From Gammaproteobacteria bacterium (lineage in GTDB: Bacteria > Pseudomonadota > Gammaproteobacteria > Eutrophobiales > Eutrophobiaceae), in assembly GCA_965243205.1 (NCBI GenBank), contig CBDEUK010000002.1, positions 128,001 through 192,000 on the forward strand: 64,000 nt of DNA, written 5' to 3'. Positions within the stretch are counted from its first letter, which is position 1. Each line of letters begins with the position of its first letter. Positions 12,184 to 50,893 of the stretch are shown here, one piece after another. Below the pieces are notes generated by a model. The model saw only the letters and a list, made by a program, of their open reading frames with translations. It ran no database searches and had not been told where the DNA came from. A program made the translations under genes and the position numbers.

Positions 12184-12636
12184 TTACAAATCCAATTTAA
12201 AAATTGTTTCACCAGCTAAAATCCGCTTTATCAAATTCTCTTTATCATTGGTCATAAGATCTTTTGCCTGTTCTGGGATATATGAATTCGGAAATGTTTT
12301 TTCTGACCATAAGGCAAATTCAATGAGGACTGGCGCGAAAGAACGACCAATATCAGTCAGTTCATAAATCACTTTTTTTCCATGATTCGGATGAGGCTTT
12401 TTTTCGATTAACTTATATTGTTGTAGTCTTTCGAGACGCTCACAAAGAATATTGGTAGCAATACCTTCTCCAGAATTTAATAAATGACCGTACTCATTAC
12501 GATTAGTAAACATTAAATCTCTTAAGATAAGCATCGTCCAACGGTCACCAATCAGTTCTAAGCCATTGGCGATAGCGCATGCTGAACGAGATTTATGGCA
12601 ATCTGGTTTACTGTCTTTCAAAGTTTTTTTAGTCAT
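12184..12636 (-). CDS. HxlR-family winged-helix regulator with N-terminal Cys
   Basis: RSACAIANGLELIGDRWTMLILRDL...GIATNILCERL...YELTDIG; ATG 12636 preferred because the longer ORF overlaps the operator. Confidence 0.85.
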   Translation of the reverse strand: MTKKTLKDSKPDCHKSRSACAIANGLELIGDRWTMLILRDLMFTNRNEYGHLLNSGEGIATNILCERLERLQQYKLIEKKPHPNHGKKVIYELTDIGRSFAPVLIEFALWSEKTFPNSYIPEQAKDLMTNDKENLIKRILAGETIFKLDL

Positions 12637-12661
12637 CTTTTCTATAATATCACGATTAATA

Positions 12662-12720
12662 TACTTGCAAATCACAAGTAAATATTGTTATAGTCTAACT
12701 TACTTGCAAAATAAAAGTAA
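12662..12720. promoter_or_regulatory. Two TACTTG-N7-(C/A)AAGTA inverted-repeat operators overlapping the divergent hxlR/gst promoters
   Basis: TACTTG-caaatca-CAAGTA 12662-12680 and TACTTG-caaaata-AAAGTA 12701-12719; TTGCAA 12665 and TGnTATAGT 12686-12694 on + strand. Confidence 0.7.
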
Positions 12721-12736
12721 CTTTAGAGAATAATAG

Positions 12737-13384
12737 ATGAAGATTTTCAGTTTTCCTACCTTGAATTTAACAAAAGTAGTGCTGGCTGCGGAAGAAGTAG
12801 GTCTCGACTATGAACTTGATTTAATGGAAATTACATCAGGGGCTCATAAATCACCCGAACACATAGAGAGACATCCATTAGGGAAAGTTCCAGCAATTGA
12901 ACTTGATGGGGTTTTTTACTTCGAAAGTAATTCAATAGTGAGATTGTTAGCAGAAAAGTATGGACAACAACTGTATGCAAATACACCAGAGGCTAGAGCA
13001 GTGATAAATCAATGGATAGATTTTATGGGTTATCATGCCGGTCGTTGGTTAACGGTTTATCTTTTTGAAGAATGTTTTAAACCAACTTTTTTAGAGAGTG
13101 AACCTAACCAATCAAAGTTGGATGAAGCTGGAGAATATTTAACGCAACAATTACCAATCCTAGAGCAGCAATTAGCAAAATATTTTTTTATATGCAGGGA
13201 AACAATCAGCATTGCAGATATCATAGCATTTAGTTTTATTCACACTACGGATCTTACCTCTATTGATATCAGTGGTTTTCCAAGAATTCTCGAATGGAAA
13301 CAAGCAATGGAATCACGACCTTCGTTTATAAATGCGATGTCAAAGTTTCCTAAACAAGATATTTATTTCGAACTTAGAAAATAA
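12737..13384 (+). CDS. Glutathione S-transferase family protein
   Basis: HPLGKVPAI, FESNSI, ISIADI, FPRILEW...SRPSF. Confidence 0.9.
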   Translation: MKIFSFPTLNLTKVVLAAEEVGLDYELDLMEITSGAHKSPEHIERHPLGKVPAIELDGVFYFESNSIVRLLAEKYGQQLYANTPEARAVINQWIDFMGYHAGRWLTVYLFEECFKPTFLESEPNQSKLDEAGEYLTQQLPILEQQLAKYFFICRETISIADIIAFSFIHTTDLTSIDISGFPRILEWKQAMESRPSFINAMSKFPKQDIYFELRK

Positions 13385-13418
13385 CAGATTCAAAAATTAC
13401 ATTAATTAGGACATCTTA

Positions 13419-15758
13419 ATGGCGAATACACTCAAACGTTATACAAACTTTATTCTTAATCACCCCTTTTTAGTCATACTCATGAGTTTACTTATGATTG
13501 GATTAGTAGGCAGTGGTGGGAAACATTTGGAATTTAATACCAATTATCGAGTGTTTTTTTCGGATGCTAATCCGCAAATGGAAGCATTTGATCAAATAGA
13601 AAAAGTTTATATAAAAACAGACAACGTTCTTTTTACCATTAAAGCCAAAGAGGGCGATGTTTTTCAACCAAGGATTTTACAGTTAGTACAGGATTTAACA
13701 GCAGATGGTTGGAAATTACCTTACTCACAAAGAGTTGATTCGATCACTAATTTCCAACATTCGTATGCCGAAGGTGATGATCTAACAGTTTTAGATTTAG
13801 TTGAGGGTGATCCGAGTCAAAAGACTCAACAAGAATTAGATGAGTTAAAACAAATTGCTCTTAAAGAACCAATCCTCAGTGGTAAATTAATTAATAAACA
13901 AGCTACGGCAACAGGTGTTAATGTTTTAATTAACCTTCCACGTAAAAAAATGACTGAAGTACCAGAAGTTGCAGCAGCCGCACGTGAATTAGTTGCAAAG
14001 TATCAAGAGCTATATCCTGAAATAGAAATCCATCCTTCTGGAATGGTATTTATGAACAATGCGTTCATGGAAAATTCAATGCAGGATATGTCGAAATTAA
14101 TGCCGATGATGTTTGTTATGTTATTGGTTGTTATGGTTGTATTGGTTCGTTCTGTTTCAGCAACGTTTGCAACACTCATTATTATTATGTTTTCTGCGAT
14201 GGCTGCTATGGGCTTTGGTGGTTGGATGGGCTTCCCCTTAACTCCTCCATCGGCTTTAACTCCCACTATTGTCTTAACATTGGCCATCGCAGATTCTATT
14301 CATATCGTAGTTTCAGTTATAAAAGGGATGCATGCAGGATTGAGTAAACGAGACGCTCTTGTTGATTCAATGCGTATTAATTTTCAACCTATATTCTTAA
14401 CTTCAGTAACGACTATCATCGGTTTTTTAAGCCTTAACTTTTCGGATAGTCCTCCGTTTTGGCATTTAGGTAATATGACGGCGTTTGGTATTGGTGCTGC
14501 GTTTGTTTTCTCTGTCTTTTTATTACCTGCGTTATTAATGTTGTTACCACTTAATTTTAAACCGAGAAAAGAGAATGAATATGGCTTAATGGAACGTTTT
14601 GCAGACTTTGTTGTTAAGTTTAATCGTGCTTTATTAGTAGTATCAGTATTATTGACTGCATTGATAGGCTCAATGATTTCTAAAATAGAGATTAATGATC
14701 AATTCGTTCAATACTTTGATTATTCTATATCGTTCAGACCTGATACCGAATTCATGATGGAAAATCTAAGTGGTATATACACCTTCGAATATTCGGTACC
14801 TTCAAAAGGTCCTGAGCAAATTACACAGCCAGAATACCTCCAAAACCTTTCTGAGTTTACAGATTGGTTACGTACACAACCAGAAGTCGATCATGTATTT
14901 TCTATGTCAGATGTATTTAAACGTTTAAACAAAAATATGCATGCTGATGATGAAACGATGTATCGAATTCCAGATCGACAAGATATGGCTGCGCAATACT
15001 TATTACTCTATGAGTTTTCATTGCCATATGGTTTAGATTTAAATGATCGCGTTAACATCGATAAGAGTGCAACACGAGTAACCGTGACGATCAAAGATTT
15101 ATCAACCAAAGAAGGGCGTGCGTTTAAAGCACGTACAGAAAAATGGTTAGATGATAACGCTCCGAGTTATATGAAATCTGAAGCAACCAGTCCTGCGGTT
15201 ATGTTTTCATTCATATCTGAACGTAATATTAACTCAATGGTTCGCGGTAATATTTTATCCTTAGTGCTAATTTCCGGCATTATACTAGTTGCTTTAAGAA
15301 GTTTTTCGATGGGGATTCTTTCATTAGTACCTAACCTTATGCCGCTAGTATTAGGCTTTGGTTTTTGGGGCATGTTAATTGGACAAATTAACATGGCAGT
15401 AGCATTTGCGTTTGCTGTGTGTCTTGGGATCATTGTGGATGATACGATCCATTTTCTTTCTAAATACATTCGTGCACGACGTGAAAAACATCTTGATGCA
15501 AGACAAGCGATTCGTTATGCCTTTCATACAGTTGGTTCGGCTTTATTTATGACAACAGTGATCTTAGTGGGTGGATTTATTGTATTAGCGCAATCAGGAT
15601 TCCAAATGAATTCATATCTGGGTTTATTAGTTGGAATAGTCATTAGCTCGGCATTATTCCTCGATTTTTTATTATTACCTCCATTATTAATTTTAATTGA
15701 AGATATACGTAATTATTTTAAAAAGGGTGTACAAAATGAAGCACTACAAAATACATAA
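13419..15758 (+). CDS. MMPL/RND-family transporter (copy 1)
   Basis: Two MMPL repeats; LAIADSIH (TM4) and GIIVDDTIH (TM10); LTSVTTIIGFLSL; LPYGLDLN. Confidence 0.9.
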   Translation: MANTLKRYTNFILNHPFLVILMSLLMIGLVGSGGKHLEFNTNYRVFFSDANPQMEAFDQIEKVYIKTDNVLFTIKAKEGDVFQPRILQLVQDLTADGWKLPYSQRVDSITNFQHSYAEGDDLTVLDLVEGDPSQKTQQELDELKQIALKEPILSGKLINKQATATGVNVLINLPRKKMTEVPEVAAAARELVAKYQELYPEIEIHPSGMVFMNNAFMENSMQDMSKLMPMMFVMLLVVMVVLVRSVSATFATLIIIMFSAMAAMGFGGWMGFPLTPPSALTPTIVLTLAIADSIHIVVSVIKGMHAGLSKRDALVDSMRINFQPIFLTSVTTIIGFLSLNFSDSPPFWHLGNMTAFGIGAAFVFSVFLLPALLMLLPLNFKPRKENEYGLMERFADFVVKFNRALLVVSVLLTALIGSMISKIEINDQFVQYFDYSISFRPDTEFMMENLSGIYTFEYSVPSKGPEQITQPEYLQNLSEFTDWLRTQPEVDHVFSMSDVFKRLNKNMHADDETMYRIPDRQDMAAQYLLLYEFSLPYGLDLNDRVNIDKSATRVTVTIKDLSTKEGRAFKARTEKWLDDNAPSYMKSEATSPAVMFSFISERNINSMVRGNILSLVLISGIILVALRSFSMGILSLVPNLMPLVLGFGFWGMLIGQINMAVAFAFAVCLGIIVDDTIHFLSKYIRARREKHLDARQAIRYAFHTVGSALFMTTVILVGGFIVLAQSGFQMNSYLGLLVGIVISSALFLDFLLLPPLLILIEDIRNYFKKGVQNEALQNT

Positions 15759-16575
15759 TTTTATTAGCACTACATTATTTGCTGCATTACTTTCTGCAAA
15801 TACCTATGCAGAAGTCAGTAAAGATGAATTAATTAAGGCCGGTAGTCCTGAAGAAATTGGTGAAGCTATCGCAGTTGAATTCGATAATCGTGATTTAGGT
15901 TTTGAAAGTCAGGTTTCAAAGATGCAAATGATTTTAAAAAATGCACACGGTGGTGAAAACCGTCGAGAAATGGAAGCTCGCATTTTTGAACGTCAACCAA
16001 GAGATATTGGCGACAAATCAATGTTAGTCTTTTTTAATCCACGTGATATCAATGGTACCGCATTAGTATCGCATGCCAATATCTTGGAAGCAGATGATCA
16101 GTGGTTATATTTACCTGCTGTGAAACGAGTAAAAAGGATTTCTTCTAAAAATAAATCGGGTCCTTTTGTGGGTTCCGAATTTGCTTATGAAGATATTACC
16201 GGTAACGAAGTTGGTAAATATGCTTGGCGTTATGATGGTTTAGAGCCTTGTCCTATTCTGGGAACAGAATGTTTTAAACTGACATCAACGCCTAAATACA
16301 AACATTCTGGATATACTAAACGAATCGTTTGGGTTGATACTGAAGAGTTTCGAGTCGATAGAATTGATTTTTATGATCGAAAGGATGAATTACTGAAAAC
16401 TCAAACATATCATTCTTATAGTGAATATTTAGATAAACATTGGCGTGCAGATAGTTGGAAAATGGTGAATCATCAAACAGGAAAAAGTACAGATTTGTTG
16501 TTTGAAAATTATCAGTTTAAAACAGGTTTGACAGATAAAGACTTTGATAAAGCAGCATTAAAACGTGTACGTTAA
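15736..16575 (+). CDS. Periplasmic LolA-like (outer membrane lipoprotein-sorting-type) protein (copy 1)
   Basis: Signal peptide; DDQWLYLPAVKRVKRIS..NKSGPFVGSEFAYEDI; LLKT; MVNHQTGKST; ATG 15736 after AAGGGTG overlaps the MMPL 3' end. Confidence 0.85.
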   Translation: MKHYKIHNFISTTLFAALLSANTYAEVSKDELIKAGSPEEIGEAIAVEFDNRDLGFESQVSKMQMILKNAHGGENRREMEARIFERQPRDIGDKSMLVFFNPRDINGTALVSHANILEADDQWLYLPAVKRVKRISSKNKSGPFVGSEFAYEDITGNEVGKYAWRYDGLEPCPILGTECFKLTSTPKYKHSGYTKRIVWVDTEEFRVDRIDFYDRKDELLKTQTYHSYSEYLDKHWRADSWKMVNHQTGKSTDLLFENYQFKTGLTDKDFDKAALKRVR

Positions 16576-17746
16576 ATCATTCATAATTTTTTTATTCCTT
16601 ATATTGCATACAGGAATTTCAATAGCCGGAGAACTCTCCGGCTTCATTGCAGCTGAACACAGACAATTTTTTTCGAGCGAACAATTTTCTGGACAAAAAG
16701 AGGGTTCTGTACCTTCATTAATTATAGAACCAGAATATATCAGTCGTTCCGAAAATGGTGACCATTCTTTCATAGCAAAATTATTTTACCGTTATGATCC
16801 AGTTGATGCTGAACGCTCGCACTTTGATGTGCGACAGGCTGATTGGACATATGCAAATAATGATTGGGAACTGCGTGTAGGTATGAGTCGTGTTTTTTGG
16901 GGAGTGATTGAATCGCGAAAGTTAGTTGATACCTTAAATCAAGTGGATGCTGTAGAAGACGTTGATGAAGAAGATAGATTGGGACAAGCCATGTTTCAAT
17001 TTGCGTCGTTTCACGATTGGGGAACACTTCGAGCTTTTTATTTACCGTATTTTCGTGAAAGGACTTTTCCTGGTCGTGAAGGTAGGTTACGACCTGCAGT
17101 TACTGTTGATGATGACGCGGCTCGTTATGAAGAGAATGCTGAAGAATGGTATCCAAATATTGCTTTACGTTATGAACATTATTTTGGTAATTGGGATATT
17201 GGTCTTGCGCAGTTTCATGGCACAGGAAGAGAACCTGTATTTCAATTTGAAAATGGCTTATTCGTTCCTTTTTATGAAACAATCAATCAAACATCGCTCG
17301 ATCTTCAATACACAAATGATGCTTGGTTAGTAAAACTAGAAAGTTTATATCGTGAAGGACAAGGCGATAGCTTTATCGCGTTATCAGGTGGTGTTGAATA
17401 TACCTTGTTTGGAATTTTTGAAACCGATCATGATTTAGGTTTGTTAGTTGAATATCATCATGATGGACGAGATGAAGAAGCACCTATAACATTTTTTGAT
17501 GACGATGTGTTTATTGGTTTTCGTTATGTGTTAAATAATATTTCTGATACTGAAATATTAGCCGGTGTGACTATGGATACTCGTGGTAATGGTAGTATTA
17601 GTGTTGTTGAAGCATCACATCGTATTAATGAACATTTAAAAATCGAAGCAGATGCCAGGATGTTTAATGGCATAGATTCAAATACTCAATTTGCTTTTTT
17701 AAATAATGATGACTTTGCGCAAATTAGATTGTCTTATTATTTTTAA
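16565..17746 (+). CDS. Putative outer-membrane beta-barrel protein (copy 1)
   Basis: Signal peptide, alternating beta-strand pattern, VFWGV.E...VD..NQ.D, LPYFRERTFPG, C-terminal aromatic (LSYYF) BAM-type signal; GTG start overlaps upstream stop. Confidence 0.75.
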   Translation: MYVKSFIIFLFLILHTGISIAGELSGFIAAEHRQFFSSEQFSGQKEGSVPSLIIEPEYISRSENGDHSFIAKLFYRYDPVDAERSHFDVRQADWTYANNDWELRVGMSRVFWGVIESRKLVDTLNQVDAVEDVDEEDRLGQAMFQFASFHDWGTLRAFYLPYFRERTFPGREGRLRPAVTVDDDAARYEENAEEWYPNIALRYEHYFGNWDIGLAQFHGTGREPVFQFENGLFVPFYETINQTSLDLQYTNDAWLVKLESLYREGQGDSFIALSGGVEYTLFGIFETDHDLGLLVEYHHDGRDEEAPITFFDDDVFIGFRYVLNNISDTEILAGVTMDTRGNGSISVVEASHRINEHLKIEADARMFNGIDSNTQFAFLNNDDFAQIRLSYYF

Positions 17747-17774: not shown

Positions 17775-18392
17775 ATGAATAAGAAGAAATTAAAAGATGC
17801 TGAGAAGTTATTTTTAAAAAAGCATCCTTTAGGTTTTGAGTCGCCTGACTTACAAGCTTTAGGCAAAAAACATAAAATGACTCAGATGATTGAGATGGCT
17901 CAAGAAAACTTTAAGAAAAAGAATTTTTCTGATTCATCTATCATTGCGGAATACATGGTCAAAATGGTCAGTCGTTCTTCAATGGTATCAATGTTTGAGA
18001 AACCAAAGTTTCGAGATACTGTTTATCAAGCAAGTGACGAAGAACGAGAGCAATTATCAAAAGGCCTAAAATCGTTTTTACATGGCAGTCAAAAAAGAGG
18101 ATTTGAAACACTAATTGATGTATTGCTTCCTTATAAACTGGCTAAGTGGTCATTAGTGACGGTGATTCCAAATTATTATAAACCAGATGATGAAGTGTTT
18201 ATTAAACCGACAACTGCAAAAGGGGTTATAGAATATTTCGAATTGAAAAATTTAACATACAAACCTCAACCCACTTGGGAGTTCTATGAGAATTATCGCG
18301 ATGTTATTTTATCAATGAGAGAACAAGTCGATGATTCCGTAGCACCTAATAATGCTGCGTTCTGTGGTTTTTTAATGATGAGTATGAATTAA
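17775..18392 (+). CDS. Conserved hypothetical protein
   Basis: 205-aa ORF with RBS (AAGGA); no family confidently recognised. Confidence 0.6.
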   Translation: MNKKKLKDAEKLFLKKHPLGFESPDLQALGKKHKMTQMIEMAQENFKKKNFSDSSIIAEYMVKMVSRSSMVSMFEKPKFRDTVYQASDEEREQLSKGLKSFLHGSQKRGFETLIDVLLPYKLAKWSLVTVIPNYYKPDDEVFIKPTTAKGVIEYFELKNLTYKPQPTWEFYENYRDVILSMREQVDDSVAPNNAAFCGFLMMSMN

Positions 18393-18435: not shown

Positions 18436-18545
18436 GCATACGGCTTTGGATGGAAGCCTGCCTCGCGAAAGCGTATGTACCATCTTTCTTAAAGCAAGCA
18501 ATTAGCTTGTATATCTTCTCAGGTCCAATAGCGAGTAGGCCCGAT
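18436..18545 (+). ncRNA. Candidate structured cis-regulatory 5' leader RNA
   Basis: GC-enriched island with several complementary segments: CATACG/CGTATG, GGCTT/AAGCC, CGC-GAAA-GCG, CAAGC/GCTTG, GCCTGCCTCGC/GCGAGTAGGC. Confidence 0.5.
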
Positions 18546-18559: not shown

Positions 18560-18997
18560 ATGCAAATGAAAAATTCATCACTTCAATCCGAATCAATCAA
18601 TCTTTTACTAAGAGAAGCGAAACGATTACATCGAGCCGCTAAAGCTGAGTCTTTGCAATGCGCTTTGCCGGTTTTACGCAGATTAATTGCGAGTAATACT
18701 TTAAAAAACATTTCTTTAGTAGCATTACATAGAAAAAGAGAAATTATTCAACGTAAACATATCTTGAATATGTTGGCATATGAAGTCGGTTATAATAATT
18801 GGGCTGAATATAAACAAGAGATGATAGCGGGCAGAACAATAACAACAGAACATTACTCAATACTTCTTAAAAATACGGGATATCCAAACCAGTGGTTTTC
18901 TAATCTTAAGGAAGCAAAAGAATATGCTCGTATTAATGGAGGAAAGCCAATTCCTGTTGGTAATCAAGCTGTTGTTATTGTAGGAGAATCGGCTTAA
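18560..18997 (+). CDS. Hypothetical basic helical protein
   Basis: LLREAKRLH...LNMLAYEVGYNNWAEYK, resembling the AKRL...A.E.GY..W helical module found in glyoxalase-superfamily-annotated and ankyrin-fusion proteins. Confidence 0.6.
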   Translation: MQMKNSSLQSESINLLLREAKRLHRAAKAESLQCALPVLRRLIASNTLKNISLVALHRKREIIQRKHILNMLAYEVGYNNWAEYKQEMIAGRTITTEHYSILLKNTGYPNQWFSNLKEAKEYARINGGKPIPVGNQAVVIVGESA

Positions 18998-19182: not shown

Positions 19183-20031
19183 ATGGCTGATCAAGAAAAT
19201 ACTAACTATTATCGCATTGCTCAGGCGATTGCATATATTGAAAAGTATTTTAAAGAACGGCCCTTATTAGATGACATTGCTGCCGAAATTGGTCTTAGTC
19301 CTTTTCATTTCCAACGTTTATTTACTGAATGGGCGGGAGTCAGCCCAAAAAAATTCATGCAATACCTAAGTATTGAATACGCTAAGAATCTATTGAAAAA
19401 TGAACAGGCAACATTATTAGACACTGCTTATAAAACTGGTTTATCCAGTACAGGTCGCTTGCATGATTTATTTGTCAGTATCGAAGGAATGACACCTGGT
19501 GAATTTAAAAATGGCGGCGAGAAACTCACCATCAATTATTGTTTTGCAGAAAGTCCATTTGGTAAAATGATTGTGGCTTCAACTGAAAAAGGAATTTGTC
19601 ATATGTTTTTCAATGATAATGAAGAGCAGGCATTATCCGACCTTAAACAACGTTTCCCAAATGCACAATACCATCAGCTTCATGATAAGTTTCAACAAGA
19701 TGCACTGTTTATTTTTCAAAAAGACTGGAAACAGCTCGATCAAATTAAATTGCATTTAAGAGGTACAGAGTTTCAGCTAAAAGTCTGGGAAACGCTACTA
19801 AAAATTCCAATGGGTAAATTAACTACCTATGGCAGTATTGCTGAACAAATCGCTAGACCAACAGCTTCGCGGGCAGTTGGTACTGCCATAGGATGTAATC
19901 CTGTGGCATTTCTTATTCCTTGTCATAGAGTGATTCAAAGTAGCGGTAAAATCGGTGGTTATATGTGGGGCAATATTCGTAAATCAGCCATGATAGGCTG
20001 GGAAGCATCAATAATAGATAAGCAAAAATAA
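19183..20031 (+). CDS. Bifunctional AraC-HTH / O6-methylguanine-DNA methyltransferase (Cada2-like adaptive-response regulator)
   Basis: LSPFHFQRLFTEWAGVSPKKF, GRLHDLF, GTEFQLKVW, ASRAVGTA, IPCHRVI; no N-terminal Ada Zn domain. Confidence 0.88.
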   Translation: MADQENTNYYRIAQAIAYIEKYFKERPLLDDIAAEIGLSPFHFQRLFTEWAGVSPKKFMQYLSIEYAKNLLKNEQATLLDTAYKTGLSSTGRLHDLFVSIEGMTPGEFKNGGEKLTINYCFAESPFGKMIVASTEKGICHMFFNDNEEQALSDLKQRFPNAQYHQLHDKFQQDALFIFQKDWKQLDQIKLHLRGTEFQLKVWETLLKIPMGKLTTYGSIAEQIARPTASRAVGTAIGCNPVAFLIPCHRVIQSSGKIGGYMWGNIRKSAMIGWEASIIDKQK

Positions 20032-44994: not shown

Positions 44995-45696
44995 ATGATA
45001 AGGAGATGTCGTCGTTTTATGCCACATATCCCTGTTCACATTGTATTGTATGGATTCCATAGAAGAGCTTGTTTTTTTACTGAAGATGATTATCAGTTAT
45101 ATATCTATCAATTAGCAAGTGTACTAAATAAAAATAACATATCGATGCATGCTTATGTATTGATGCCAAATCATATACATCTATTATTAACACAACATGA
45201 TGAAAGTAGTATTGATAATGTCATGCGTACTCAAGCTAGACAATATCAAACTTGTATTCAAAGACGTTATAAAATAACCAATCCTATTTGGCAAAAAAAC
45301 TATAAAGCTTGTCATATAAATGCTAAAGAATATTTAATAAAAGTTTGTCAGTATATCGATTTAAATCCTGTGAGATCTGGCTTGGTAGATTTAGCGCAAG
45401 AATATGTTTGGAGTAGTTTTTCATTTAATGCAATGAATGAAAAAAATATTTTATTAAAAGAACATAATGTTTTTTTATCTATTAATAAGAATAAAACTGA
45501 TAGAAATAAATATTATTTAAATCTCTGTGAACAAAGTTTATCTGAAAATGATTTGATAGATATTAGATCTAGTATTCAAAATGAAGTTGCTATGGGTAAT
45601 AAGTTATTTAATGATCGGGTTCAGACTTATTTATTAGGGAAAAAATCGAATGATATAGAAGATGAAAAAGTTATTTATCATACAAGTAGGAATTAA
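44995..45696 (+). mobile_element. REP-associated tyrosine transposase (RAYT/Y1 HUH) homologue, divergent
   Basis: HAYVLMPNHIHLL (HUH) and YIDLNPVRSGLV...Y.WSS (catalytic Tyr); usual H...RG.NR motif reads HIVLYGFHR. Confidence 0.75.
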
Positions 45697-47078
45697 TAAT
45701 TATAGGTTAGAAATAATTTGAAATGGTCATCACGTGTTACAAAAAAAGCTGGGTCAGTTCTGTCTTGATCAATAAAGAACCGACTTTGTAATTCTAGGAA
45801 AAAATTATTTGTTAAACGTCGGTTAGCTTCTATATTAAAAAATTTTCCACCCGTATTTCTATCCCAAACAAGACCCGCAAGTAACTCAGATGATTGCGCA
45901 TCATTAAATGCGACACGTGTTCCTACCGCTATATCGTCCTCAAAAATATTTAAATTATTTTCTCCACGACTATCATAGTAATACTCTGCTAGAACACCGA
46001 CATCTATACTGCTTTCAAACGCGCCAACAAATGTGTATTCAAAACCTCCGCCTAATGTTGTAAAAGGCGAACCTTGTCCCCTGCGATATAAGGCTTCTAA
46101 CTTCCATAACCAACTGCCTTTGGTGGCTTGGAGATCCAACGAGGTTTGATTAATAATCTCATACAAAGGCCGAAAAACTGGGTTTCCTGATGAATCAGTC
46201 GAAGGGATAAAGCGTGGTTCACGGCTAGTTCCATAAAAATGTGAAATACCAATATCCCAATCGCCAAAATAGTGTGAGTAACGTACCGCAGCATCAATAT
46301 GTTTTTCTTTACGGCTGGATTCATATATTGGGTTATCAGTATCGACTCTGGGTTGAGTTCTTAGACGACCTTCAATACCAGGAAATGTTCTTTCGCGAAA
46401 ATAGGGCAATATAAAAAAATCCATTGTGCCCCAGTCTTGGATCCATGCGACATTAAGCATGGGTTGGCCTAGCTTATCTTCAGTATCGATATTTTCAACG
46501 AGATCCGTTTGATTGATGATGTCTACTAGATGTTGAAACTCAGTAACACCCCAAAAAACTTTTCCTGCACCAACACGTAATTCCCAGTCTCTGCTGGCTC
46601 TTTCATAAATCAATTCTCTGACATCAAAATGACTTCGTTGGTTATCGTGTTGGTCAAGGCGCAAAAACGGTTTAAAGGCGATGAGTTGATTTCCATTATC
46701 CCATTCGTAGAGAAATTCAGGTTCTGCTACAAACGATATATTATTCGTATAATCTTGTTGCGGTGCGGCAGCTGATTGAGTGAATACGATATTTTCAATT
46801 CCCAACATTCCGGAATATTCGATTTGAGAACGTTGAGTTTTTGCTTCGCTGTGAGAACGCATTTCATCAGAAATATCGAAATCAACCTGTTCTCTTTCAC
46901 GTATTTTTTCAGCACGAGCAACTAACACTTCGGCAGGAAGTCCCTCTAACCCGAGTAATTTAGCCGGATTATTCAGGCTTTCAATACCTAGCAATCCCGC
47001 GATTTTGGGGCTAGCTAGGCTTACGCTTGAGCAGATGATGCCAAGTATAAAATATGGGTATATGCCGAGGTTTTTCAC
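45693..47078 (-). CDS. Putative outer-membrane beta-barrel protein (copy 2), with N-terminal extension
   Basis: RSHFDVRE, VFWGVTE..HLVDIINQTD, LPYFRERTFPG.EGRLR shared with copy 1; C-terminal LTYNY. Confidence 0.75.
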   Translation of the reverse strand: MKNLGIYPYFILGIICSSVSLASPKIAGLLGIESLNNPAKLLGLEGLPAEVLVARAEKIREREQVDFDISDEMRSHSEAKTQRSQIEYSGMLGIENIVFTQSAAAPQQDYTNNISFVAEPEFLYEWDNGNQLIAFKPFLRLDQHDNQRSHFDVRELIYERASRDWELRVGAGKVFWGVTEFQHLVDIINQTDLVENIDTEDKLGQPMLNVAWIQDWGTMDFFILPYFRERTFPGIEGRLRTQPRVDTDNPIYESSRKEKHIDAAVRYSHYFGDWDIGISHFYGTSREPRFIPSTDSSGNPVFRPLYEIINQTSLDLQATKGSWLWKLEALYRRGQGSPFTTLGGGFEYTFVGAFESSIDVGVLAEYYYDSRGENNLNIFEDDIAVGTRVAFNDAQSSELLAGLVWDRNTGGKFFNIEANRRLTNNFFLELQSRFFIDQDRTDPAFFVTRDDHFKLFLTYNY

Positions 47079-47170: not shown

Positions 47171-47956
47171 TTATCTGGATCGTTTTAGGCTGTTTCGATC
47201 AAAATCACGATCTGTGAAATCATTATTGAAACGATAGCTGAGCCATAATAAGTCAGTTTCTTTACCGGTTTGATGATTTATCATATGCATTTTTGCGGGA
47301 CGCCAATATTTATCAAGATATTGTTTATATCCGCTGGTAGTGAGGGTTTTCAATAGAGCGTTTTTTCGGTCGTAATATTCAATTTTTAGAGGGTGGTATA
47401 TGGTTTTATCTAACCAGACAATTTGCCTTTGGTAGCCGGAATTTTCGTATTGAGGAAAGCGTTCGATGACAAAGCAGTCCTTTCCATCAATGACTTCATC
47501 TTTTAACCATTTATATTTATATTTTTCTACCTCTTGAGAAGCGATATCTTCATAGGCGAATTCACTACCAACAAAAGGGCCAGATTTATTGGCCGAAGCA
47601 ATACGCTTCACGCGTTTGAGTGCGGGGAGATATAACCATTGCTCATCTGGTTTCAGAGCATGAGAGTAGCTTAAAAATGCTGTACCACTGACGTCCTTAG
47701 GAGTATGAAATAAACTTAAGCTCTTATCGCCATCATCCAAAACTTCAAGAGTTTTAATATCAAGGTCACGAGTGCTTTCCTGTCCACCTTTATTTCGTAA
47801 GATCATTTTTAATTCAGAAAATTGGTCACTCCAACCTGTGTCTCGTTTATCCGATTCGATTGTAATTGCGAGTCCTTTTTCTTCAGGTGTTTCAGCTTGG
47901 GCAATAAAGCTAATTGGGTTGAGTAATAGTAGAAGTGGAAGCCAACTTCTTCTCAT
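47171..47956 (-). CDS. Periplasmic LolA-like protein (copy 2)
   Basis: Signal peptide; DEQWLYLPALKRVKRIASANKSGPFVGSEFAYEDI. Confidence 0.85.
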   Translation of the reverse strand: MRRSWLPLLLLLNPISFIAQAETPEEKGLAITIESDKRDTGWSDQFSELKMILRNKGGQESTRDLDIKTLEVLDDGDKSLSLFHTPKDVSGTAFLSYSHALKPDEQWLYLPALKRVKRIASANKSGPFVGSEFAYEDIASQEVEKYKYKWLKDEVIDGKDCFVIERFPQYENSGYQRQIVWLDKTIYHPLKIEYYDRKNALLKTLTTSGYKQYLDKYWRPAKMHMINHQTGKETDLLWLSYRFNNDFTDRDFDRNSLKRSR

Positions 47957-50246
47957 GGTATTCCTCCAATTTAATCAATAATGGTGGCAGAAAGAAGAAG
48001 TCTGCGACCAAAGCAAAAATAATTACAATACTGGTTAAGAGTCCCATTCCTGAATTTAATTCAAAACTTGAAGTCGATAGCAGAAAAAAGCCTGCAGCTA
48101 AAATGATTGATGTAATTAAAAGAGCTCTGCCGACTGTCCTAAATGCATAACGTACAGCGCCTTTGGGTGGTAAATTTTGTTCTCTTCTGGCACGTAAATA
48201 TTTACTGAGCATATGAACAGTATCATCGACCACAATACCTAATGTCATCGTAGTTACTACTGATAGGGATAAGCCGATTTCCCCGACCATCAGTCCCCAT
48301 AATCCAAAGCCCATCGCCGCAGGCACCAAGTTAGGAATTAAACTTACAAAACCAATTTTGAATGATTTTAAAGCGATAATTAAAATTAAAGAAATAAACA
48401 CTAACGCAATAGTTGAACCAAGTAGCATACTTTTAATATTTCGTTGTCCAATATTTGCAAACATTAAACTACTGCCTGTACCGCTGTAATTTTTTATATG
48501 AGTTGTATATGAAGATAACCAATTTTTAGCGCGTTTATCAAAATCGATTAGTTCTTGTGAGGATAATACTTTGGTTCTAATAACGGTCAGTAATAAAGAT
48601 TTATCAATATTAATTTGATTATTTAGATCCAATCCATAGGGCAGAGAGTTTTCATATAATAATATATATTGTGCGGCTAGTTCACGAGATGTTGGTAATT
48701 TATATTGTTCTATATCATCTCCATGAAGATTTTTATTTAACCTTTTCATAGTGTCAGTAAATGAAATAACATTGGTTACTTCAGGTTGTTGTCTAGCCCA
48801 TTGAGCAAAATTTTCAGCATCCTGTAAAAATTTTGCTGCATTAATACCGCTTTCTTCACCAGAATCTAAGGTGTATTCGATATTATAAAGACCCGTTAAA
48901 TTATTATTGATAAAATCAGTATCATTTCTGAATTGAATCGAGTTATCAAAATAATGTACAAAAATGTCATTTAGTTCATTACGAGGTATTGAACAGATTA
49001 ATATGATTATGCCGATAGCGACAGACCAAAATAACAGATTGTAATTTCGTACAACATAACGTCCGAGAGAATCCATAGACGATTTTTTGAATTTCTTTTG
49101 GGATAGTCGATGTATAGGTAATAAAGATAATAAAGCAGGTAGTAAAGTCACAGATAGTAATAGTGAAACTAAAACTCCAATTGCCACAAAATTACCAAGG
49201 TGTCTAAAAGGCGGGACATCAGAAAAATTCATCGCTAAAAAACCAATAGTTGTAGTAATAGAAGCGATGAATATAGGTTGTAGATTAATCCGTAAGCTTT
49301 CTAAAATAGCATCGATTTTTTTATGGCCAATAGCGTATTCATAATTCATATTAGATAGGATATGTACGCAATTAGCTATCGCTACAGTAAGGATAATAGT
49401 TGGAGCAGAAATTGAAGCAGGCGAGAGTGGGAAGCCAAGCATTGCACCCAACCCCATTGCTGTAATAATGGCAAATAAAATAACGACTAATGAACAGATA
49501 GTACCGATGATTCCGCCAACCATGATGGCAAGAATTAATAACATTAATGCAAAACTTAATGGGACAAGGAAGCTTATATCTTTTTTAGCTGATTCTGAAA
49601 AAGCATTATTCATCATTATCATGCCAGTTAAATAAAGCTTAACACTTGGGTGCTTTGCTTCTATTTCACTAACCATTTTTCGAACATGCTCGACTATTTC
49701 AGGTGTTTCTTTGTCTTTATCAATACCAGGTAATTGTACTGTTATATTGATACCCGCTACATGTCCTGATTTAGAGCTTAAACTATTAACAATTAATGGT
49801 TCTGTCGTTGCTACATGTCGTATCTTTTCTATGTCTTTCTCTGTTAGATTATCTGTATCAGGTACAAGGTCAGCGACAATGACATCATCTTCAACAGATT
49901 CTGTATGTTGATAATTTGTAATTGAATCGACGCGATTTGAATAAGGTATTTGCCAGGCTTTTTCTGTTATCTCTTTTAGAATGGCTAAATTTTCTTTGGT
50001 AAATATATTTTTATTATCTGGCGCAATAGCAATCAGAACATTATCTTTTTTGGAAAAGATTTTTTCCATGGTTTCAAACGCGATCAGTTCGGGATTATCT
50101 TCACTGAAAAAAATACGATAGTCGGTGGTGAAATGCAGCTGCTTAGCGCCTTGTAACCCAGCGACAACTAGACACAAACTGAGAGTGATAATTAAATATC
50201 GATAACGAATTACCCAGCCGCCAAATCGTGTTTCAAAATCTTGCAT
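47910..50246 (-). CDS. MMPL/RND-family transporter (copy 2)
   Basis: RVDSITNYQH, VAIANCVH (TM4), LPYGLDLN, GIVVDDTVH (TM10). Confidence 0.9.
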   Translation of the reverse strand: MQDFETRFGGWVIRYRYLIITLSLCLVVAGLQGAKQLHFTTDYRIFFSEDNPELIAFETMEKIFSKKDNVLIAIAPDNKNIFTKENLAILKEITEKAWQIPYSNRVDSITNYQHTESVEDDVIVADLVPDTDNLTEKDIEKIRHVATTEPLIVNSLSSKSGHVAGINITVQLPGIDKDKETPEIVEHVRKMVSEIEAKHPSVKLYLTGMIMMNNAFSESAKKDISFLVPLSFALMLLILAIMVGGIIGTICSLVVILFAIITAMGLGAMLGFPLSPASISAPTIILTVAIANCVHILSNMNYEYAIGHKKIDAILESLRINLQPIFIASITTTIGFLAMNFSDVPPFRHLGNFVAIGVLVSLLLSVTLLPALLSLLPIHRLSQKKFKKSSMDSLGRYVVRNYNLLFWSVAIGIIILICSIPRNELNDIFVHYFDNSIQFRNDTDFINNNLTGLYNIEYTLDSGEESGINAAKFLQDAENFAQWARQQPEVTNVISFTDTMKRLNKNLHGDDIEQYKLPTSRELAAQYILLYENSLPYGLDLNNQINIDKSLLLTVIRTKVLSSQELIDFDKRAKNWLSSYTTHIKNYSGTGSSLMFANIGQRNIKSMLLGSTIALVFISLILIIALKSFKIGFVSLIPNLVPAAMGFGLWGLMVGEIGLSLSVVTTMTLGIVVDDTVHMLSKYLRARREQNLPPKGAVRYAFRTVGRALLITSIILAAGFFLLSTSSFELNSGMGLLTSIVIIFALVADFFFLPPLLIKLEEYHEKKLASTSTITQPN

Positions 50247-50278: not shown

Positions 50279-50893
50279 CTAGTAAGCACGTTGCTCGATT
50301 CCTTTAATAATGAGTTTAAATACTTCATTCGCAAGCACTTCGAATGTTTCGAGAGGATAAAAGCCCATGAAAACTGGAGTATCGAATAGAGCAATCGAAG
50401 TATAAATGGCTCTGCTGGTTTCATCTATGTTGTCTATCACAAATTCATCAGATTCAAGGCCTTGAAGAAGGATGCTTTTGATTTCTGATTGTATGACAGA
50501 TATTTTATTATGAATGACAGCAGGTTTTTCATCTGTTACATAAGCGATCAGCTCATAAATTTTTTCATCATTCTCAAAAATATCATGACAGAGTCTAAGG
50601 GTGGTTAAAATTAAGATTTGAAGCTTTTCGCTAGCAGAAGCTGATTCATTACTCTGGATAGTTTGTTTGATTGTCGTTAAGCGTTTTTCAATACAACCTT
50701 CAACACATGCACAGGCGATTTCTTGCTTATTTTTGAAATAGCGGTAAAGGTTAGCCGCAGACATGCCACAATCTTCGGCAATTTCTGCCATGGTGGATTT
50801 GGTATAGCCATATTGACGAAAACGATTAAATGCTGACTCGATAATCCTTTCGTGTGTGGCCTCGTTTATATTAATTATTAATGCCGATTCCAT
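50279..50893 (-). CDS. TetR-family regulator heading the second MMPL operon
   Basis: GYTKSTMAEIAEDCGMSAANLYRYFKNK. Confidence 0.9.
   Translation of the reverse strand: MESALIININEATHERIIESAFNRFRQYGYTKSTMAEIAEDCGMSAANLYRYFKNKQEIACACVEGCIEKRLTTIKQTIQSNESASASEKLQILILTTLRLCHDIFENDEKIYELIAYVTDEKPAVIHNKISVIQSEIKSILLQGLESDEFVIDNIDETSRAIYTSIALFDTPVFMGFYPLETFEVLANEVFKLIIKGIEQRAY

What the first reader, a model, noticed from the sequence alone, without database searches (positions are those of the whole stretch)
12184..17746. MMPL + LolA-like + OM beta-barrel operon: candidate trans-envelope transport system for a hydrophobic cargo
Seen: four co-directional genes behind a divergent HxlR regulator - gst, an MMPL/RND permease, a periplasmic LolA-like protein and a beta-barrel. 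The last three overlap (15736<15758, 16565<16575). There is no MFP adaptor or TolC-like gene. Known: MmpL/HpnN-type RND proteins move lipids, and the LolA fold is a soluble carrier with a hydrophobic cavity. Inference: this is an inner-membrane pump, periplasmic shuttle and outer-membrane barrel that moves a lipid-like or electrophilic molecule without a continuous AcrAB-TolC-type duct. The GST may conjugate or detoxify the cargo. I know of no characterised system with exactly this set of components.
Basis: partly seen in the sequence, partly recalled or inferred. Interest (0 to 1): 0.75.

Follow-up and report, generated by a model that had tools for sequence, protein, structure and literature searches.

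The report
Three-part envelope transporter for hydrophobic cargo
A conserved three-gene set (inner-membrane pump, periplasmic lipid-carrier-like protein, outer-membrane barrel) that probably moves greasy molecules across the cell envelope; it is widespread in bacteria, hardly studied, and this genome carries two copies.

Summary
At 12184-17746 lie a divergent HxlR regulator, a GST, an MmpL-like RND permease, a PF17131 LolA-like protein and a 393-aa protein, with the stated overlaps. The 393-aa protein models as an outer-membrane beta-barrel.

The last three genes form a conserved cassette. Of the 80 best barrel loci in public genomes, 62 have RND, LolA-like and barrel in that order. Three of those 62 have RND and LolA-like fused. 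Three other loci replace the RND with MacB/FtsX-type ABC permeases. A co-fold places the LolA-like protein on the periplasmic mouth of the barrel (score 0.63, best control 0.00).

The usual neighbour is a TetR regulator (37 of 62 loci). The GST and HxlR are not conserved with the cassette.

The system is a compact relative of described but poorly understood HAE3 cassettes (AmeABCD; DUF1302/DUF1329). Operons with the same annotated gene order are strongly induced on n-C28 (Thalassolituus) and under haem limitation (Porphyromonas). Cargo and direction remain open: export is favoured, but NPC2/NPC1-like uptake is a serious rival.

The parts
12184..12675 (-). HxlR-family transcription regulator, divergent from gst. 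Local regulator of this copy only.
   Evidence: PF01638 E 4e-18. Weak NCBIfam matches to the redox regulators RrpA/RrpB, far below their cut-offs. No homologue in any of the 80 related loci.
12676..12736 (.). Divergent promoter/operator region between hxlR and gst. It holds two short inverted repeats built on ACTTGCAAA.
   Evidence: Sequence read directly. Promoter-like hexamers on both strands at 12665-12694 (+) and 12671-12644 (-), both with a TG extension. Operator function is inferred.
12737..13384 (+). Glutathione S-transferase. Probably first gene of the operon here, but not a conserved part of the system.
   Evidence: GST_N and GST_C Pfam matches. 34-nt gap to the RND gene with no terminator-like site between them. 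Never adjacent to the cassette in 62 loci.
13419..15758 (+). MmpL-like (HAE3-like) RND permease, 779 aa. Inner-membrane, proton-driven engine.
   Evidence: PF03176 115.9 bits. Best NCBIfam is TIGR00921 HAE3, 176.8 bits, below its 351.9 cut-off. AF2 pLDDT 88.8, pTM 0.86. Foldseek best matches are MmpL4/5, NPC1L1, HpnN and MmpL3, TMq 0.69-0.76. Membrane residues H295, D674, H678 and D749 are invariant in 55 of 55 homologues; D292 in 44 of 55 and D675 in 43 of 55.
15736..16575 (+). Periplasmic LolA-like protein (PF17131), 279 aa. Has a signal peptide and no lipobox cysteine.
   Evidence: PF17131 185.5 bits, plus a partial DUF1329 match. PDB 3BK5 E 3e-71; 9TP6 (LolA3 of P. gingivalis) E 1e-24. Predicted to cap the barrel.
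16565..17746 (+). Outer-membrane beta-barrel of a family without a Pfam model, 393 aa, about 18 strands.
   Evidence: fold. 2222 sequence relatives, and none of the 120 listed carries a Pfam domain. 2227 representative clusters at E<=0.001. ESM Atlas nearest named clusters are DUF1302, score 0.97, a lead only.
17775..18392 (+). 205-aa protein of unknown family, 29 nt after the barrel gene. Possibly co-transcribed, but not part of the conserved system.
   Evidence: No family. No homologue in the 80 loci. The first terminator-like site lies after it, at 18494-18510. Atlas finds only unnamed clusters.
50279..50893 (-). TetR regulator of the second, canonical copy of the cassette.
   Evidence: TetR_N and TetR_C_27. 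Sits directly upstream of RND2 on the same strand, as in 29 of 62 loci.
47910..50246 (-). RND permease, copy 2 (778 aa).
   Evidence: PF03176 E 9e-39. 43% identical to copy 1 over 758 residues.
47171..47956 (-). LolA-like protein, copy 2 (261 aa).
   Evidence: PF17131 E 2e-66. 50% identical to copy 1.
45693..47078 (-). Barrel, copy 2 (461-aa ORF). Has a signal peptide, then about 60 extra N-terminal residues before the barrel.
   Evidence: No Pfam family. 45% identical to copy 1 over 376 residues, E 3e-108. Translation.

Best explanation
The three overlapping genes encode one envelope-spanning transport system for hydrophobic molecules. It needs no membrane-fusion adaptor and no TolC.

Proposed mechanism.
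1. The MmpL-like RND permease, driven by the proton gradient, takes a lipid-like or hydrophobic cargo from the inner membrane or its outer leaflet. It releases the cargo on the periplasmic side.
2. The soluble LolA-like protein shields the cargo in its hydrophobic groove.
3. The LolA-like protein docks as a cap on the periplasmic mouth of a dedicated barrel of about 18 strands. Through the barrel the cargo enters or crosses the outer membrane. Net transport is outward.

Regulation. Expression is set by a local ligand-sensing repressor. In most genomes, and in the window's second copy, this is a TetR. In this copy it is an HxlR-type regulator, and a GST has joined the operon. That suggests this copy was recruited to an electrophile or oxidant stress response.

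What is shown and what is inferred.
- Shown: the families and folds, the conservation of the triad, the fusions, and the swap of engine.
- Predicted: the docking of the LolA-like protein on the barrel.
- Inferred: the hand-over from the RND, the outward direction, the nature of the cargo, and control by HxlR.
For: 1. Conserved unit. 581 genome stretches encode barrel relatives. Of the best 80 loci, 59 have RND, LolA-like and barrel as separate co-directional genes and 3 have RND::LolA-like fused followed by the barrel. Seven are cut by contig ends. On plasmids, 4 of 4 examined records (of 6 hits) also have all three genes. The window itself has two copies, 43-50% identical.

2. Fusions. 498 proteins of 490 aa or more match the LolA-like protein. 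All 120 listed carry both PF03176 and PF17131.

3. Engine swap. In L005, L061 and L072 the LolA-like gene and the barrel sit with MacB_PCD/FtsX permeases instead of an RND. L061 also has an ABC ATPase. Recalled knowledge: LolCDE, which feeds LolA, is of the same ABC type.

4. Docking. Co-fold of barrel 22-393 with LolA-like 28-279 scored 0.63, best of 3 controls 0.00. The mark was reached by 116 of 157 solved complexes and 2 of 215 mismatched pairs; these counts hold only roughly because my own alignments were used. The runs agree in at least 89% of contacts and the partner's pLDDT is at least 84. Contacts fall on both barrel termini and on nearly every periplasmic turn. On the LolA-like side they include residues 101-106 and 129-146.

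5. The RND is a lipid-branch pump. Foldseek best matches are MmpL4/5, NPC1L1, HpnN and MmpL3. Candidate proton-relay residues are conserved.

6. Not the general Lol chaperone. The homologue LolA3 of P. gingivalis (9TP6) shows only very weak binding to LolB (PMC13103446, passages). Deleting lolA3 in F. johnsoniae affects neither gliding nor type IX secretion (PMC11885536, passages).

7. Regulator logic. A TetR cluster lies upstream in 29 + 8 of 62 loci. No other flank family occurs in more than 4 loci, so there is no conserved biosynthetic, MFP or TolC partner.

8. Export precedent. Deleting the related four-gene AmeABCD lowers monoterpene tolerance and raises Nile Red accumulation (PMC6394551, abstract and passages).
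Against: No cargo or direction has been measured for this family.

- Most physiological data from likely relatives fit nutrient uptake as well as, or better than, efflux. The Thalassolituus pair is induced on n-C28 as a growth substrate (PMC6304351). The DUF1302/DUF1329/RND genes are needed for growth on Tween 20 (PMC10866462, 10.1101/2020.07.04.188060). The Porphyromonas operon is induced under haem or iron limitation (PMC10470040, PMC10434189).
- The docking is a model only.
- Interface residues are not significantly more conserved than the rest. Barrel: 12 of 44 against 90 of 372, p = 0.37. LolA-like: 15 of 35 against 81 of 252, p = 0.10.
- Contact between the RND and the LolA-like protein was not modelled, because the pair exceeds the size limit.
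- In fused forms the carrier would stay tethered about 10-15 residues from a membrane segment unless an internal signal peptide is cleaved. A free shuttle is therefore unproven.
- Eight of the 80 loci have the barrel alone.
- A role for HxlR and GST rests on gene position in this one genome.
Confidence: 0.5

Rival explanations
1. Uptake system. The barrel admits an insoluble nutrient such as a long-chain alkane, a fatty ester or haem. The LolA-like protein carries it across the periplasm and hands it to the RND, which inserts it into the inner membrane. This would parallel NPC2 handing cholesterol to NPC1.
For: - Foldseek places NPC1L1 and NPC1 among the best structural matches of the RND, TMq 0.71-0.76.
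- The Thalassolituus MMPL::LolA-like fusion is up 42-fold on n-C28, and its downstream 'porin' is detected only on n-C28 (PMC6304351, passages).
- PP_0765/0766 and PP_2018/2019 are essential for growth on Tween 20. AlphaFold suggested DUF1329 binds either the barrel or the RND plus beta-propeller (PMC10866462, passages).
- The P. gingivalis genes annotated TetR, MMPL, lipoprotein-sorting protein and hypothetical are the four genes most induced under haem limitation, LFC -7.4 to -8.1 (PMC10470040, Table 2 passage).
- TetR regulators also control catabolic operons (recalled).
Against: - To my knowledge (recalled), every bacterial RND transporter with a measured direction exports.
- The AmeABCD phenotypes indicate efflux (PMC6394551).
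- Homology of TOL_3188 and PG1178 to this barrel was not tested.
- No catabolic genes are conserved beside the cassette.
- This copy sits with a stress-type regulator and a GST.
Confidence: 0.25
2. Outer-membrane lipid delivery. The cargo is one of the cell's own lipids, for example a hopanoid-like, polyketide or other envelope lipid. The barrel with the LolA-like cap inserts it into the outer membrane rather than releasing it outside. This would resemble HpnN, or the ApeL/ApeM/ApeN route proposed for aryl polyenes.
For: - Price et al. proposed 'export of a cell wall component' for the DUF1302/DUF1329/BNR/RND genes, which have pleiotropic phenotypes (10.1101/072470, passage).
- A Sulfitobacter plasmid copy directly follows a type I polyketide synthase.
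- APE clusters pair a LolA-like protein with an RND (PMC8253772, passages).
- HpnN and MmpL3 are among the structural matches.
Against: - No biosynthetic gene family recurs beside the cassette in 62 loci.
- The commonest neighbour is a ligand-type repressor.
- Two diverged copies in one small genome look more like substrate-specific pumps.
- The Sulfitobacter barrel is only 27% identical, and that is a single case.
Confidence: 0.17
3. The RND and the LolA-like protein serve to export or assemble the barrel protein itself, which then acts as a passive porin. This is the proposal of the Thalassolituus authors.
For: Proposed in PMC6304351 (passages). The predicted contact between the LolA-like protein and the barrel would also fit a chaperone-client pair.
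Against: - The barrel has its own Sec-type signal peptide and a C-terminal aromatic residue typical of BAM substrates (the BAM rule is recalled).
- The co-fold shows a folded barrel capped at its periplasmic rim, not an unfolded client.
- RND pumps of this branch move lipids, not proteins.
Confidence: 0.03

Closest known systems
AmeABCD of Castellaniella defragrans, and the DUF1302/DUF1329/BNR/HAE3-RND cassettes of Shewanella and Pseudomonas (PP_0765/0766 + PP_2018/2019)
   Same: - An HAE3-type RND, a LolA-superfamily periplasmic protein and an outer-membrane barrel, with no MFP or TolC.
- Roles in tolerance to hydrophobic substrates or their use.
- The window's LolA-like protein partly matches DUF1329.
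- The ESM Atlas places DUF1302 clusters nearest among named ones, score 0.97.
   Different: - Three genes, not four: there is no COG4447/BNR beta-propeller gene in this operon.
- The carrier is the short PF17131 type (279 aa, against 451 aa for AmeB).
- The barrel is 393 aa, against 605 aa for AmeA.
- None of 39 barrel family members matches DUF1302 in Pfam at E<=1.
Thalassolituus oleivorans TOL_3187 (MMPL::LolA-like fusion) and TOL_3188 ('porin' without domains)
   Same: Same architecture as the fused loci L047, L067 and L068: an RND::LolA-like fusion followed by a domain-less barrel-like gene. Co-induced on n-C28 (PMC6304351).
   Different: The window's genes are separate. Sequence homology of TOL_3188 to this barrel could not be tested. 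The authors read the system as a porin-export device.
Porphyromonas gingivalis PG1178-PG1181 and similar Prevotella intermedia operons
   Same: [quoted passage not shown] This equals the commonest layout found here.
- One transcription unit (PMC11018363).
- LolA3-PG (9TP6) matches the window protein at E 1e-24.
   Different: - Bacteroidota host.
- Induced by haem or iron limitation and affected by NO stress.
- The Prevotella copies add two ABC ATPase genes.
- Neither the homology of PG1178 to the barrel nor the identity of LolA3 with PG1179 was tested here.
HpnN, MmpL3 and MmpL4/5-MmpS4/5 (lipid- and siderophore-exporting RNDs)
   Same: Same RND branch by fold. Lipid-like cargo. No AcrA/TolC-type duct.
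   Different: Those systems have no LolA-like partner and no dedicated barrel. The HpnN NCBIfam models score far below their cut-offs.
LolCDE-LolA-LolB lipoprotein pathway, and the aryl-polyene ApeL/ApeM/ApeN system
   Same: A LolA-fold carrier fed by an inner-membrane engine. The MacB-type ABC engine of L005, L061 and L072 is of the LolCDE type. ApeM is an RND paired with the LolA-like ApeL (PMC8253772).
   Different: The acceptor here is a large barrel, not a LolB-like lipoprotein. The window protein matches PF17131; no other LolA-type Pfam family was listed at E<=0.01. LolA3 shows only very weak binding to LolB (PMC13103446).
NPC2-NPC1 cholesterol hand-over in eukaryotes
   Same: A soluble carrier with a hydrophobic pocket works with an RND-fold membrane protein. 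NPC1 and NPC1L1 are among the top structural matches.
   Different: That system imports, sits in a different kingdom, and has no barrel. The carrier folds are unrelated (recalled).

Membership tests
RND superfamily, MMPL family (PF03176) | Pfam MMPL match above the gathering score | tested here: met
   115.9 bits against a cut-off of 20.5, in two stretches.
RND superfamily, MMPL family (PF03176) | Twelve-helix core with two large periplasmic loops, as in MmpL/HpnN/NPC1 | tested here: met
   AF2 pLDDT 88.8, pTM 0.86. Foldseek TMq 0.69-0.76 to MmpL4/5, NPC1L1, HpnN and MmpL3.
RND superfamily, MMPL family (PF03176) | Conserved charged or polar residues in the TM4/TM10 region (proton relay; the rule itself is recalled) | tested here: met
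   D292 in 44 of 55 sequences. H295, D674, H678 and D749 in 55 of 55. D675 in 43 of 55.
HAE3 family (TIGR00921) | Score at or above NCBIfam's curated cut-off | tested here: not met
   Best NCBIfam hit, but 176.8 bits against a cut-off of 351.9. It is therefore HAE3-like, not a certified member.
HpnN hopanoid transporter (TIGR03480, NF052374) | Score at or above the curated cut-off | tested here: not met
   112.1 bits against 751.85, and 36.5 bits against 1100.
Tripartite HAE1 efflux pump (AcrAB-TolC type) | Adjacent membrane-fusion (HlyD-type) gene and OEP/TolC gene | tested here: not met
   None among the 57 window ORFs. No such flank family recurs in the 62 loci.
LolA_like (PF17131) | Pfam match above the gathering score and a solved homologue | tested here: met
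   185.5 bits against 30. 3BK5 E 3e-71.
Canonical LolA lipoprotein chaperone | Works with LolB or the Lol pathway | not testable with these tools
   Literature only. The homologue LolA3-PG shows only very weak binding to LolB (PMC13103446). A lolA3 deletion has no Lol-type phenotype (PMC11885536). No LolB-like gene lies in the operon.
DUF1329 (PF07044) | Full-length Pfam match | tested here: inconclusive
   50.1 bits against 23.1, but the best stretch covers only profile positions 269-348 of 368.
DUF1302 (PF06980) outer-membrane barrel | Pfam match | tested here: not met
   None of 39 family members matches at E<=1. The Atlas feature search puts DUF1302 clusters nearest among named ones, 0.97 with 218-219 of 256 features, a lead only. 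A profile-profile test was not possible.
AmeABCD-type four-gene cassette | COG4447/BNR beta-propeller gene within the cassette | tested here: not met
   No such gene lies between 12184 and 18392, and none recurs in the flanks of the 62 loci. Copy 2 has a YncE-like propeller 1.2 kb upstream, which is a different family.
Outer-membrane beta-barrel protein | Signal peptide, closed antiparallel barrel, C-terminal aromatic residue | tested here: met
   Longer relatives carry periplasmic AMIN (7 of 27), SPOR (3 of 27) or OmpA (1 of 27) domains at the N-terminus.

The most novel reading that the evidence does not exclude
This is a distinct and widespread class of Gram-negative trans-envelope conduit for water-insoluble molecules. 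A soluble LolA-fold protein caps a dedicated barrel of about 18 strands. It is fed interchangeably by an MmpL-like RND or a MacB-type ABC engine. In at least some lineages it may run inward, like NPC2 to NPC1, to bring in long-chain alkanes, fatty esters or haem. That would be the first RND-based uptake route across a double membrane.
Probability: 0.3. Interest if true: 0.8.

Novelty: new variant of a known kind. Interest (0 to 1): 0.55.

Why it matters
How hydrophobic molecules cross the aqueous periplasm and the outer membrane without an AcrAB-TolC duct is known for only a few cargos: LPS, lipoproteins and phospholipids.

This cassette offers a simple, genetically compact case of three genes that is present in hundreds of species across many phyla. 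At least 581 genome stretches encode barrel relatives. Carriers include hydrocarbon degraders, nitrifiers and sponge symbionts, and probably oral Bacteroidota.

Likely relatives are among the most strongly regulated genes on long-chain alkanes and under haem starvation, yet no mechanism is known for them. Three things make the question directly testable:
- a defined partner set;
- a predicted docking surface;
- natural variants (fused genes, an ABC-driven form, and two paralogues in one genome).

Tried and rejected
1. LolA-like::barrel fusions. None of the 27 longer barrel homologues has a LolA-like domain; they carry AMIN, SPOR or OmpA domains, or nothing.

2. Conservation of the predicted interface. 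Not significant for either chain.

3. Pfam membership of the barrel. No family matches the window protein. Among 39 relatives there are only weak, scattered matches: Wzi in 3, the PelB barrel in 1, OMP_b-brl in 1. A PDB sequence search found nothing at E<=10.

4. GST, HxlR and the 205-aa and 145-aa downstream genes as conserved partners. No adjacent homologues in the 80 loci. The nearest relative, L001, has none of them.

5. Promoter and terminator scan. Promoter-like sites are fewer than in shuffles (18 against 30.4), so uninformative. No terminator-like site lies between gst and the end of the barrel gene other than weak ones inside genes.

6. Direct test that TOL_3188 and PG1178 are barrel homologues. 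Their sequences were not within reach. No Thalassolituus or Porphyromonas record was among the 80 loci or the named hits.

7. Neighbourhoods of the closest barrel relatives (62-70% identity, P0002-P0008).

8. Internal signal peptide of the fused forms. 73 of 102 have a strongly hydrophobic linker segment and 92 of 102 a small-x-small motif after it. The motif is common by chance, so cleavage remains a guess.

9. One search failed because three references were not open reading frames. I re-sent the call without them, and later gave the proper ORF of L072.


Full report
**What is there**

Pfam names four of them:
- HxlR (PF01638, E 4e-18).
- GST (N- and C-terminal domains).
- An MMPL-type RND permease (PF03176, 115.9 bits).
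- A LolA_like protein (PF17131, 185.5 bits). It also matches part of DUF1329.

The RND's best NCBIfam model is HAE3 (TIGR00921), but the score of 176.8 bits is below the 351.9 cut-off. The HpnN models score far lower.

The 393-aa product of 16565-17746 matches no Pfam or NCBIfam model and no PDB sequence.

The ribosome-binding sites favour ATG 15736 for the LolA-like gene. They also show AGGA seven bases before the RND start.

The 205-aa gene at 17775 follows the barrel gene after 29 nt. The first terminator-like site comes after it, at 18494-18510.

The window is chromosomal DNA of an uncultured-lineage gammaproteobacterium. It carries the nusA-infB-rbfA-truB-pnp and rimM-trmD-rplS operons. 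The best named NusA relatives are 'MAG: Gammaproteobacteria', with identity no higher than 88%.

**The third protein is an outer-membrane barrel**

- It has a signal-peptide-like N-terminus and ends in ...SYYF.
- With a 39-sequence alignment (A1), AlphaFold2 gives pLDDT 87.6 and pTM 0.81. The fold is all-beta, and I count 18 membrane strands plus one short hairpin (the count is mine).
- Foldseek against the PDB gives 279 matches at E<=0.001. All matches shown are porins or the 18-stranded alginate exporter AlgE, which has the best TMq at 0.57-0.59.
- The family is large and unnamed. There are 2222 relatives in the 90% clusters, and none of the 120 listed carries a Pfam domain. The 50% library holds 2227 representative clusters at E<=0.001 and 932 at E<=1e-30.
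- Longer relatives carry periplasmic peptidoglycan-binding domains at the N-terminus: AMIN in 7 of 27, SPOR in 3 of 27 and OmpA in 1 of 27. None has a LolA-like domain.
- The most conserved stretch of the barrel, residues about 106-142, is modelled with low confidence.

**The triad is a conserved unit**

Of these, 581 encode a relative, and the best 80 loci were kept. I searched all six-frame ORFs of these loci with the window's seven proteins and classified them (details):
- 59 loci have RND, LolA-like and barrel as separate co-directional genes.
- 3 loci (L047, L067, L068) have RND and LolA-like in one ORF, followed by the barrel.
- 7 loci are cut by a contig end.
- 3 loci (L005, L061, L072) have the LolA-like gene and the barrel with MacB_PCD/FtsX permeases in place of the RND. 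L061 also has an ABC ATPase.
- 8 loci have the barrel alone. Two of these sit behind a sigma-54 two-component pair.

A tblastn search of plasmids gave 6 records. The 4 that I examined all have the three genes. In a Pseudoalteromonas plasmid the barrel is divergent from the other two.

Fusions are common. 498 proteins of 490 aa or more match the LolA-like protein, and all 120 listed carry both PF03176 and PF17131.

The loci come from many groups: Alpha-, Beta- and Gammaproteobacteria, Acidobacteriota, Verrucomicrobiota, Omnitrophota, Tectimicrobiota, a Syntrophobacteraceae MAG, and two contigs binned as Flavobacteriaceae.

**What travels with it**

I clustered 491 flanking genes of the 62 triad loci.
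- One family lies directly upstream on the same strand in 29 loci.
- A second family lies directly upstream and divergent in 8 loci.
- Nothing else occurs in more than 4 loci.

The representatives of both families are TetR regulators.

No GST is ever the neighbour of the RND. GSTs lie within the roughly 8-kb flanks of 5 of 80 loci. By my own estimate that is about what chance gives. HxlR and the 205-aa and 145-aa genes have no homologue in any locus.

The RND of this copy is sister to that of L001, an alphaproteobacterial MAG (57% identity, support 100). L001 has no TetR, GST or HxlR beside it.

**A second copy in the window**

Scanning the remaining ORFs showed a second cassette on the minus strand:
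- TetR, 50279-50893.
- RND, 47910-50246.
- LolA_like, 47171-47956.
- A 461-aa ORF without a family, 45693-47078.

These are 43%, 50% and 45% identical to the RND, LolA-like protein and barrel of the first copy.

In the RND tree, copy 2 sits in a gammaproteobacterial clade in which 8 of 8 members have the upstream TetR. Copy 1 sits in the other major clade (FastTree; 56 rows; 8 triad loci with split or partial RND ORFs were left out).

Copy 2 therefore shows the standard layout. Copy 1 has exchanged the TetR for an HxlR and gained a GST.

**How the parts fit**

*The RND.*
- The model has pLDDT 88.8 and pTM 0.86.
- It is closest to MmpL4/MmpL5 (TMq 0.73-0.75), NPC1L1 and NPC1 (0.71-0.76), HpnN (0.69-0.71) and MmpL3 (0.67-0.72).
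- This is the lipid-handling branch of the RND superfamily.
- By sequence, the best PDB match is HpnN at only E 4e-9.
- Membrane-embedded H295, D674, H678 and D749 are invariant in 55 homologues. D292 is kept in 44 of 55 and D675 in 43 of 55. This fits a working proton relay.

*The LolA-like protein.*
- It has a cleavable-looking signal peptide and no lipobox cysteine. The same holds for 38 of the 39 homologues printed; one (L073) has an ambiguous LSGC motif.

*The docking prediction.*
- I co-folded barrel residues 22-393 with LolA-like residues 28-279. The score was 0.63, against 0.00 for the best of 3 controls.
- The mark was reached by 116 of 157 solved complexes and 2 of 215 mismatched pairs. 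These counts hold only roughly here because my own alignments were used.
- The runs agree in at least 89% of contacts, and the partner's pLDDT is at least 84.
- The model supports binding; it does not show it.
- On the barrel, the contacts lie on both termini and on the ends of nearly every strand pair facing the periplasm. The carrier therefore sits as a cap over the periplasmic mouth.
- On the carrier, the contacts include 101-106 and 129-146. These overlap the motif KRVKRISS.NKSGPFVGSEF, one of the most conserved stretches of the family.
- Taken over the whole interface, however, conservation is not significantly enriched.
- I know of no solved complex of this kind, so a pass from memory seems unlikely. 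That judgement is recalled, not tested.

*The fused forms.*
- They keep an internal Met, a basic stretch, a hydrophobic segment and a small-x-small motif between the RND and the carrier.
- This looks like a retained signal peptide. It could either be cleaved or act as a thirteenth helix.
- If it is uncleaved, the carrier would be held close to the inner membrane and could not shuttle.

**Comparison with what is known**

*AmeABCD and the DUF1302/DUF1329 cassettes.*
- Castellaniella AmeABCD is the nearest described kind. It combines an HAE3 RND (AmeD), a DUF1302 barrel (AmeA), a DUF1329 LolA-superfamily protein (AmeB) and a COG4447 propeller (AmeC).
- Deleting ameABCD lowers monoterpene tolerance and raises Nile Red accumulation (PMC6394551; abstract and passages).
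- The same four families are cofit in Shewanella, Kangiella and Pseudomonas. [quoted passage not shown]
- In P. putida they are essential for growth on Tween 20. AlphaFold suggested that DUF1329 binds either the barrel or the RND plus propeller (PMC10866462 and 10.1101/2020.07.04.188060; passages).
- The window's cassette differs in three ways. It lacks the propeller, uses the short PF17131 carrier, and has a smaller barrel that does not match DUF1302 in Pfam (0 of 39).
- The ESM Atlas does place DUF1302 clusters nearest among named ones (0.97). This is a lead only.

*Operons with the same annotated layout.* I could not test the fourth gene of either one for homology to the barrel.
- In Thalassolituus oleivorans, the MMPL::LolA-like fusion TOL_3187 is up 42-fold on n-C28. 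The downstream domain-less 'porin' TOL_3188 is detected only on n-C28 (PMC6304351; passages).
- In Porphyromonas gingivalis, PG1181-PG1178 are annotated TetR, MMPL, 'outer membrane lipoprotein-sorting protein' and hypothetical protein.
  - They are the four genes most induced under haem limitation (PMC10470040; Table 2 passage).
  - They are induced 13- to 136-fold under iron limitation (PMC10434189; passages).
  - They form one transcription unit (PMC11018363; passages).

*Solved homologues of the carrier.*
- The P. gingivalis paralogue LolA3 (PDB 9TP6) matches the window protein at E 1e-24.
- It shows only very weak binding to LolB (PMC13103446; passages).
- Deleting lolA3 in Flavobacterium johnsoniae has no Lol-type phenotype (PMC11885536; passages).

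*Aryl-polyene clusters.* They pair a LolA-like protein with an RND and a LolB-like protein (PMC8253772; passages).

*Searches.* My literature searches for this exact triad found no mechanistic study of it. Supplementary files were not opened.

**Most likely mechanism, and rivals**

I take the three proteins to be one transport system with confidence about 0.85. The grounds are the conserved gene order, the fusions, the interchangeable engine and the predicted docking.

I favour outward transport of a hydrophobic molecule (0.5). The reasons:
- Bacterial RND pumps of known direction export (recalled).
- The AmeABCD phenotypes indicate efflux.
- The usual neighbour is a ligand-type repressor.

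The rivals:
- Uptake (0.25). The alkane, Tween and haem data fit it well, and NPC2 to NPC1 is a precedent within the same fold.
- Delivery of the cell's own lipid into the outer membrane (0.17). The Sulfitobacter plasmid copy that follows a type I polyketide synthase points that way.
- Assembly or export of the barrel protein itself (0.03).

For this particular copy, the HxlR regulator and the GST suggest induction by electrophiles or oxidants. That rests on gene position alone. The two inverted repeats in the 61-nt intergenic region are candidate operators.

**Verdict**

The system is a new, compact variant of a known but poorly understood kind. It is not a system without precedent.

Noticed in passing
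window 45693-50893 (-), with upstream genes to 52943: A second, diverged copy of the cassette: TetR, RND, LolA_like and barrel, 43-50% identical to the first copy. On the same strand it is preceded by a 121-aa ORF, a YncE-like beta-propeller/lactonase (51418-52377) and an SRPBCC/Polyketide_cyc2 lipid-binding protein (52395-52943). An IS200-like transposase gene (44995-45696, +) abuts its far end.
   Followed up: partly
L005:1100-6335, L061:4019-9182, L072:54-4087: In these loci the LolA-like gene and the barrel sit with two MacB_PCD/FtsX permeases instead of an RND. L061 also has an ABC ATPase with a YHS domain. The engine therefore appears interchangeable.
   Followed up: partly
proteins P0123-P0259: Longer barrel homologues carry N-terminal AMIN (7 of 27), SPOR (3 of 27) or OmpA (1 of 27) domains. 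These barrels are probably anchored to peptidoglycan.
   Followed up: partly
L082/L083 (Sulfitobacter plasmid NZ_CP085169.1, record 140154-153840): A distant copy of the triad (barrel 27% identical) directly follows a 7.7-kb type I polyketide synthase gene, with galE inserted before the barrel. This recalls the Pks-MmpL pairs of mycobacteria.
   Followed up: partly
L081 (Pseudoalteromonas rhizosphaerae plasmid p1, 23.9 kb): The triad lies on a small plasmid beside a GmtY recombinase and an integrase. The barrel is divergent from the RND and LolA-like genes. The cassette can therefore be mobile.
   Followed up: no
fused proteins P0268-P0387: Natural RND::LolA-like fusions keep what looks like a complete internal signal peptide (Met, basic stretch, hydrophobic core, small-x-small) at the junction. 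It is open whether it is cleaved.
   Followed up: partly
window 12676-12736: Two short inverted repeats built on ACTTGCAAA lie between hxlR and gst. They are candidate HxlR operators.
   Followed up: no
window 7166-8287 (-), 19183-20031 (+), 43513-43983 (+): There are three alkylation-repair-type genes: a HEAT/DNA_alkylation-like protein, an Ada-like AraC + methyltransferase fusion 0.2 kb after the 145-aa gene, and a second O6-methylguanine methyltransferase. Together with the GST and HxlR they may mark an electrophile-stress neighbourhood.
   Followed up: no
window 17775-18392 and 18560-18997: Two small genes without a family follow the barrel gene. The 205-aa protein belongs to unnamed Atlas clusters found mostly in Campylobacterota and Pseudomonadota.
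   Followed up: partly
L026 and L031: A contig binned as Flavobacteriaceae carries an RND almost identical to that of an alphaproteobacterial Hwanghaeella MAG (branch lengths 0.049 and 0.051). This is either mis-binning or a very recent transfer.
   Followed up: no
window 32608-39810 (-), 58027-63558 (-): A type IV pilus minor-pilin/PilY1 cluster. Further on lie a receiver-domain Ser/Thr kinase and a 1388-aa CheA-like hybrid kinase.
   Followed up: no
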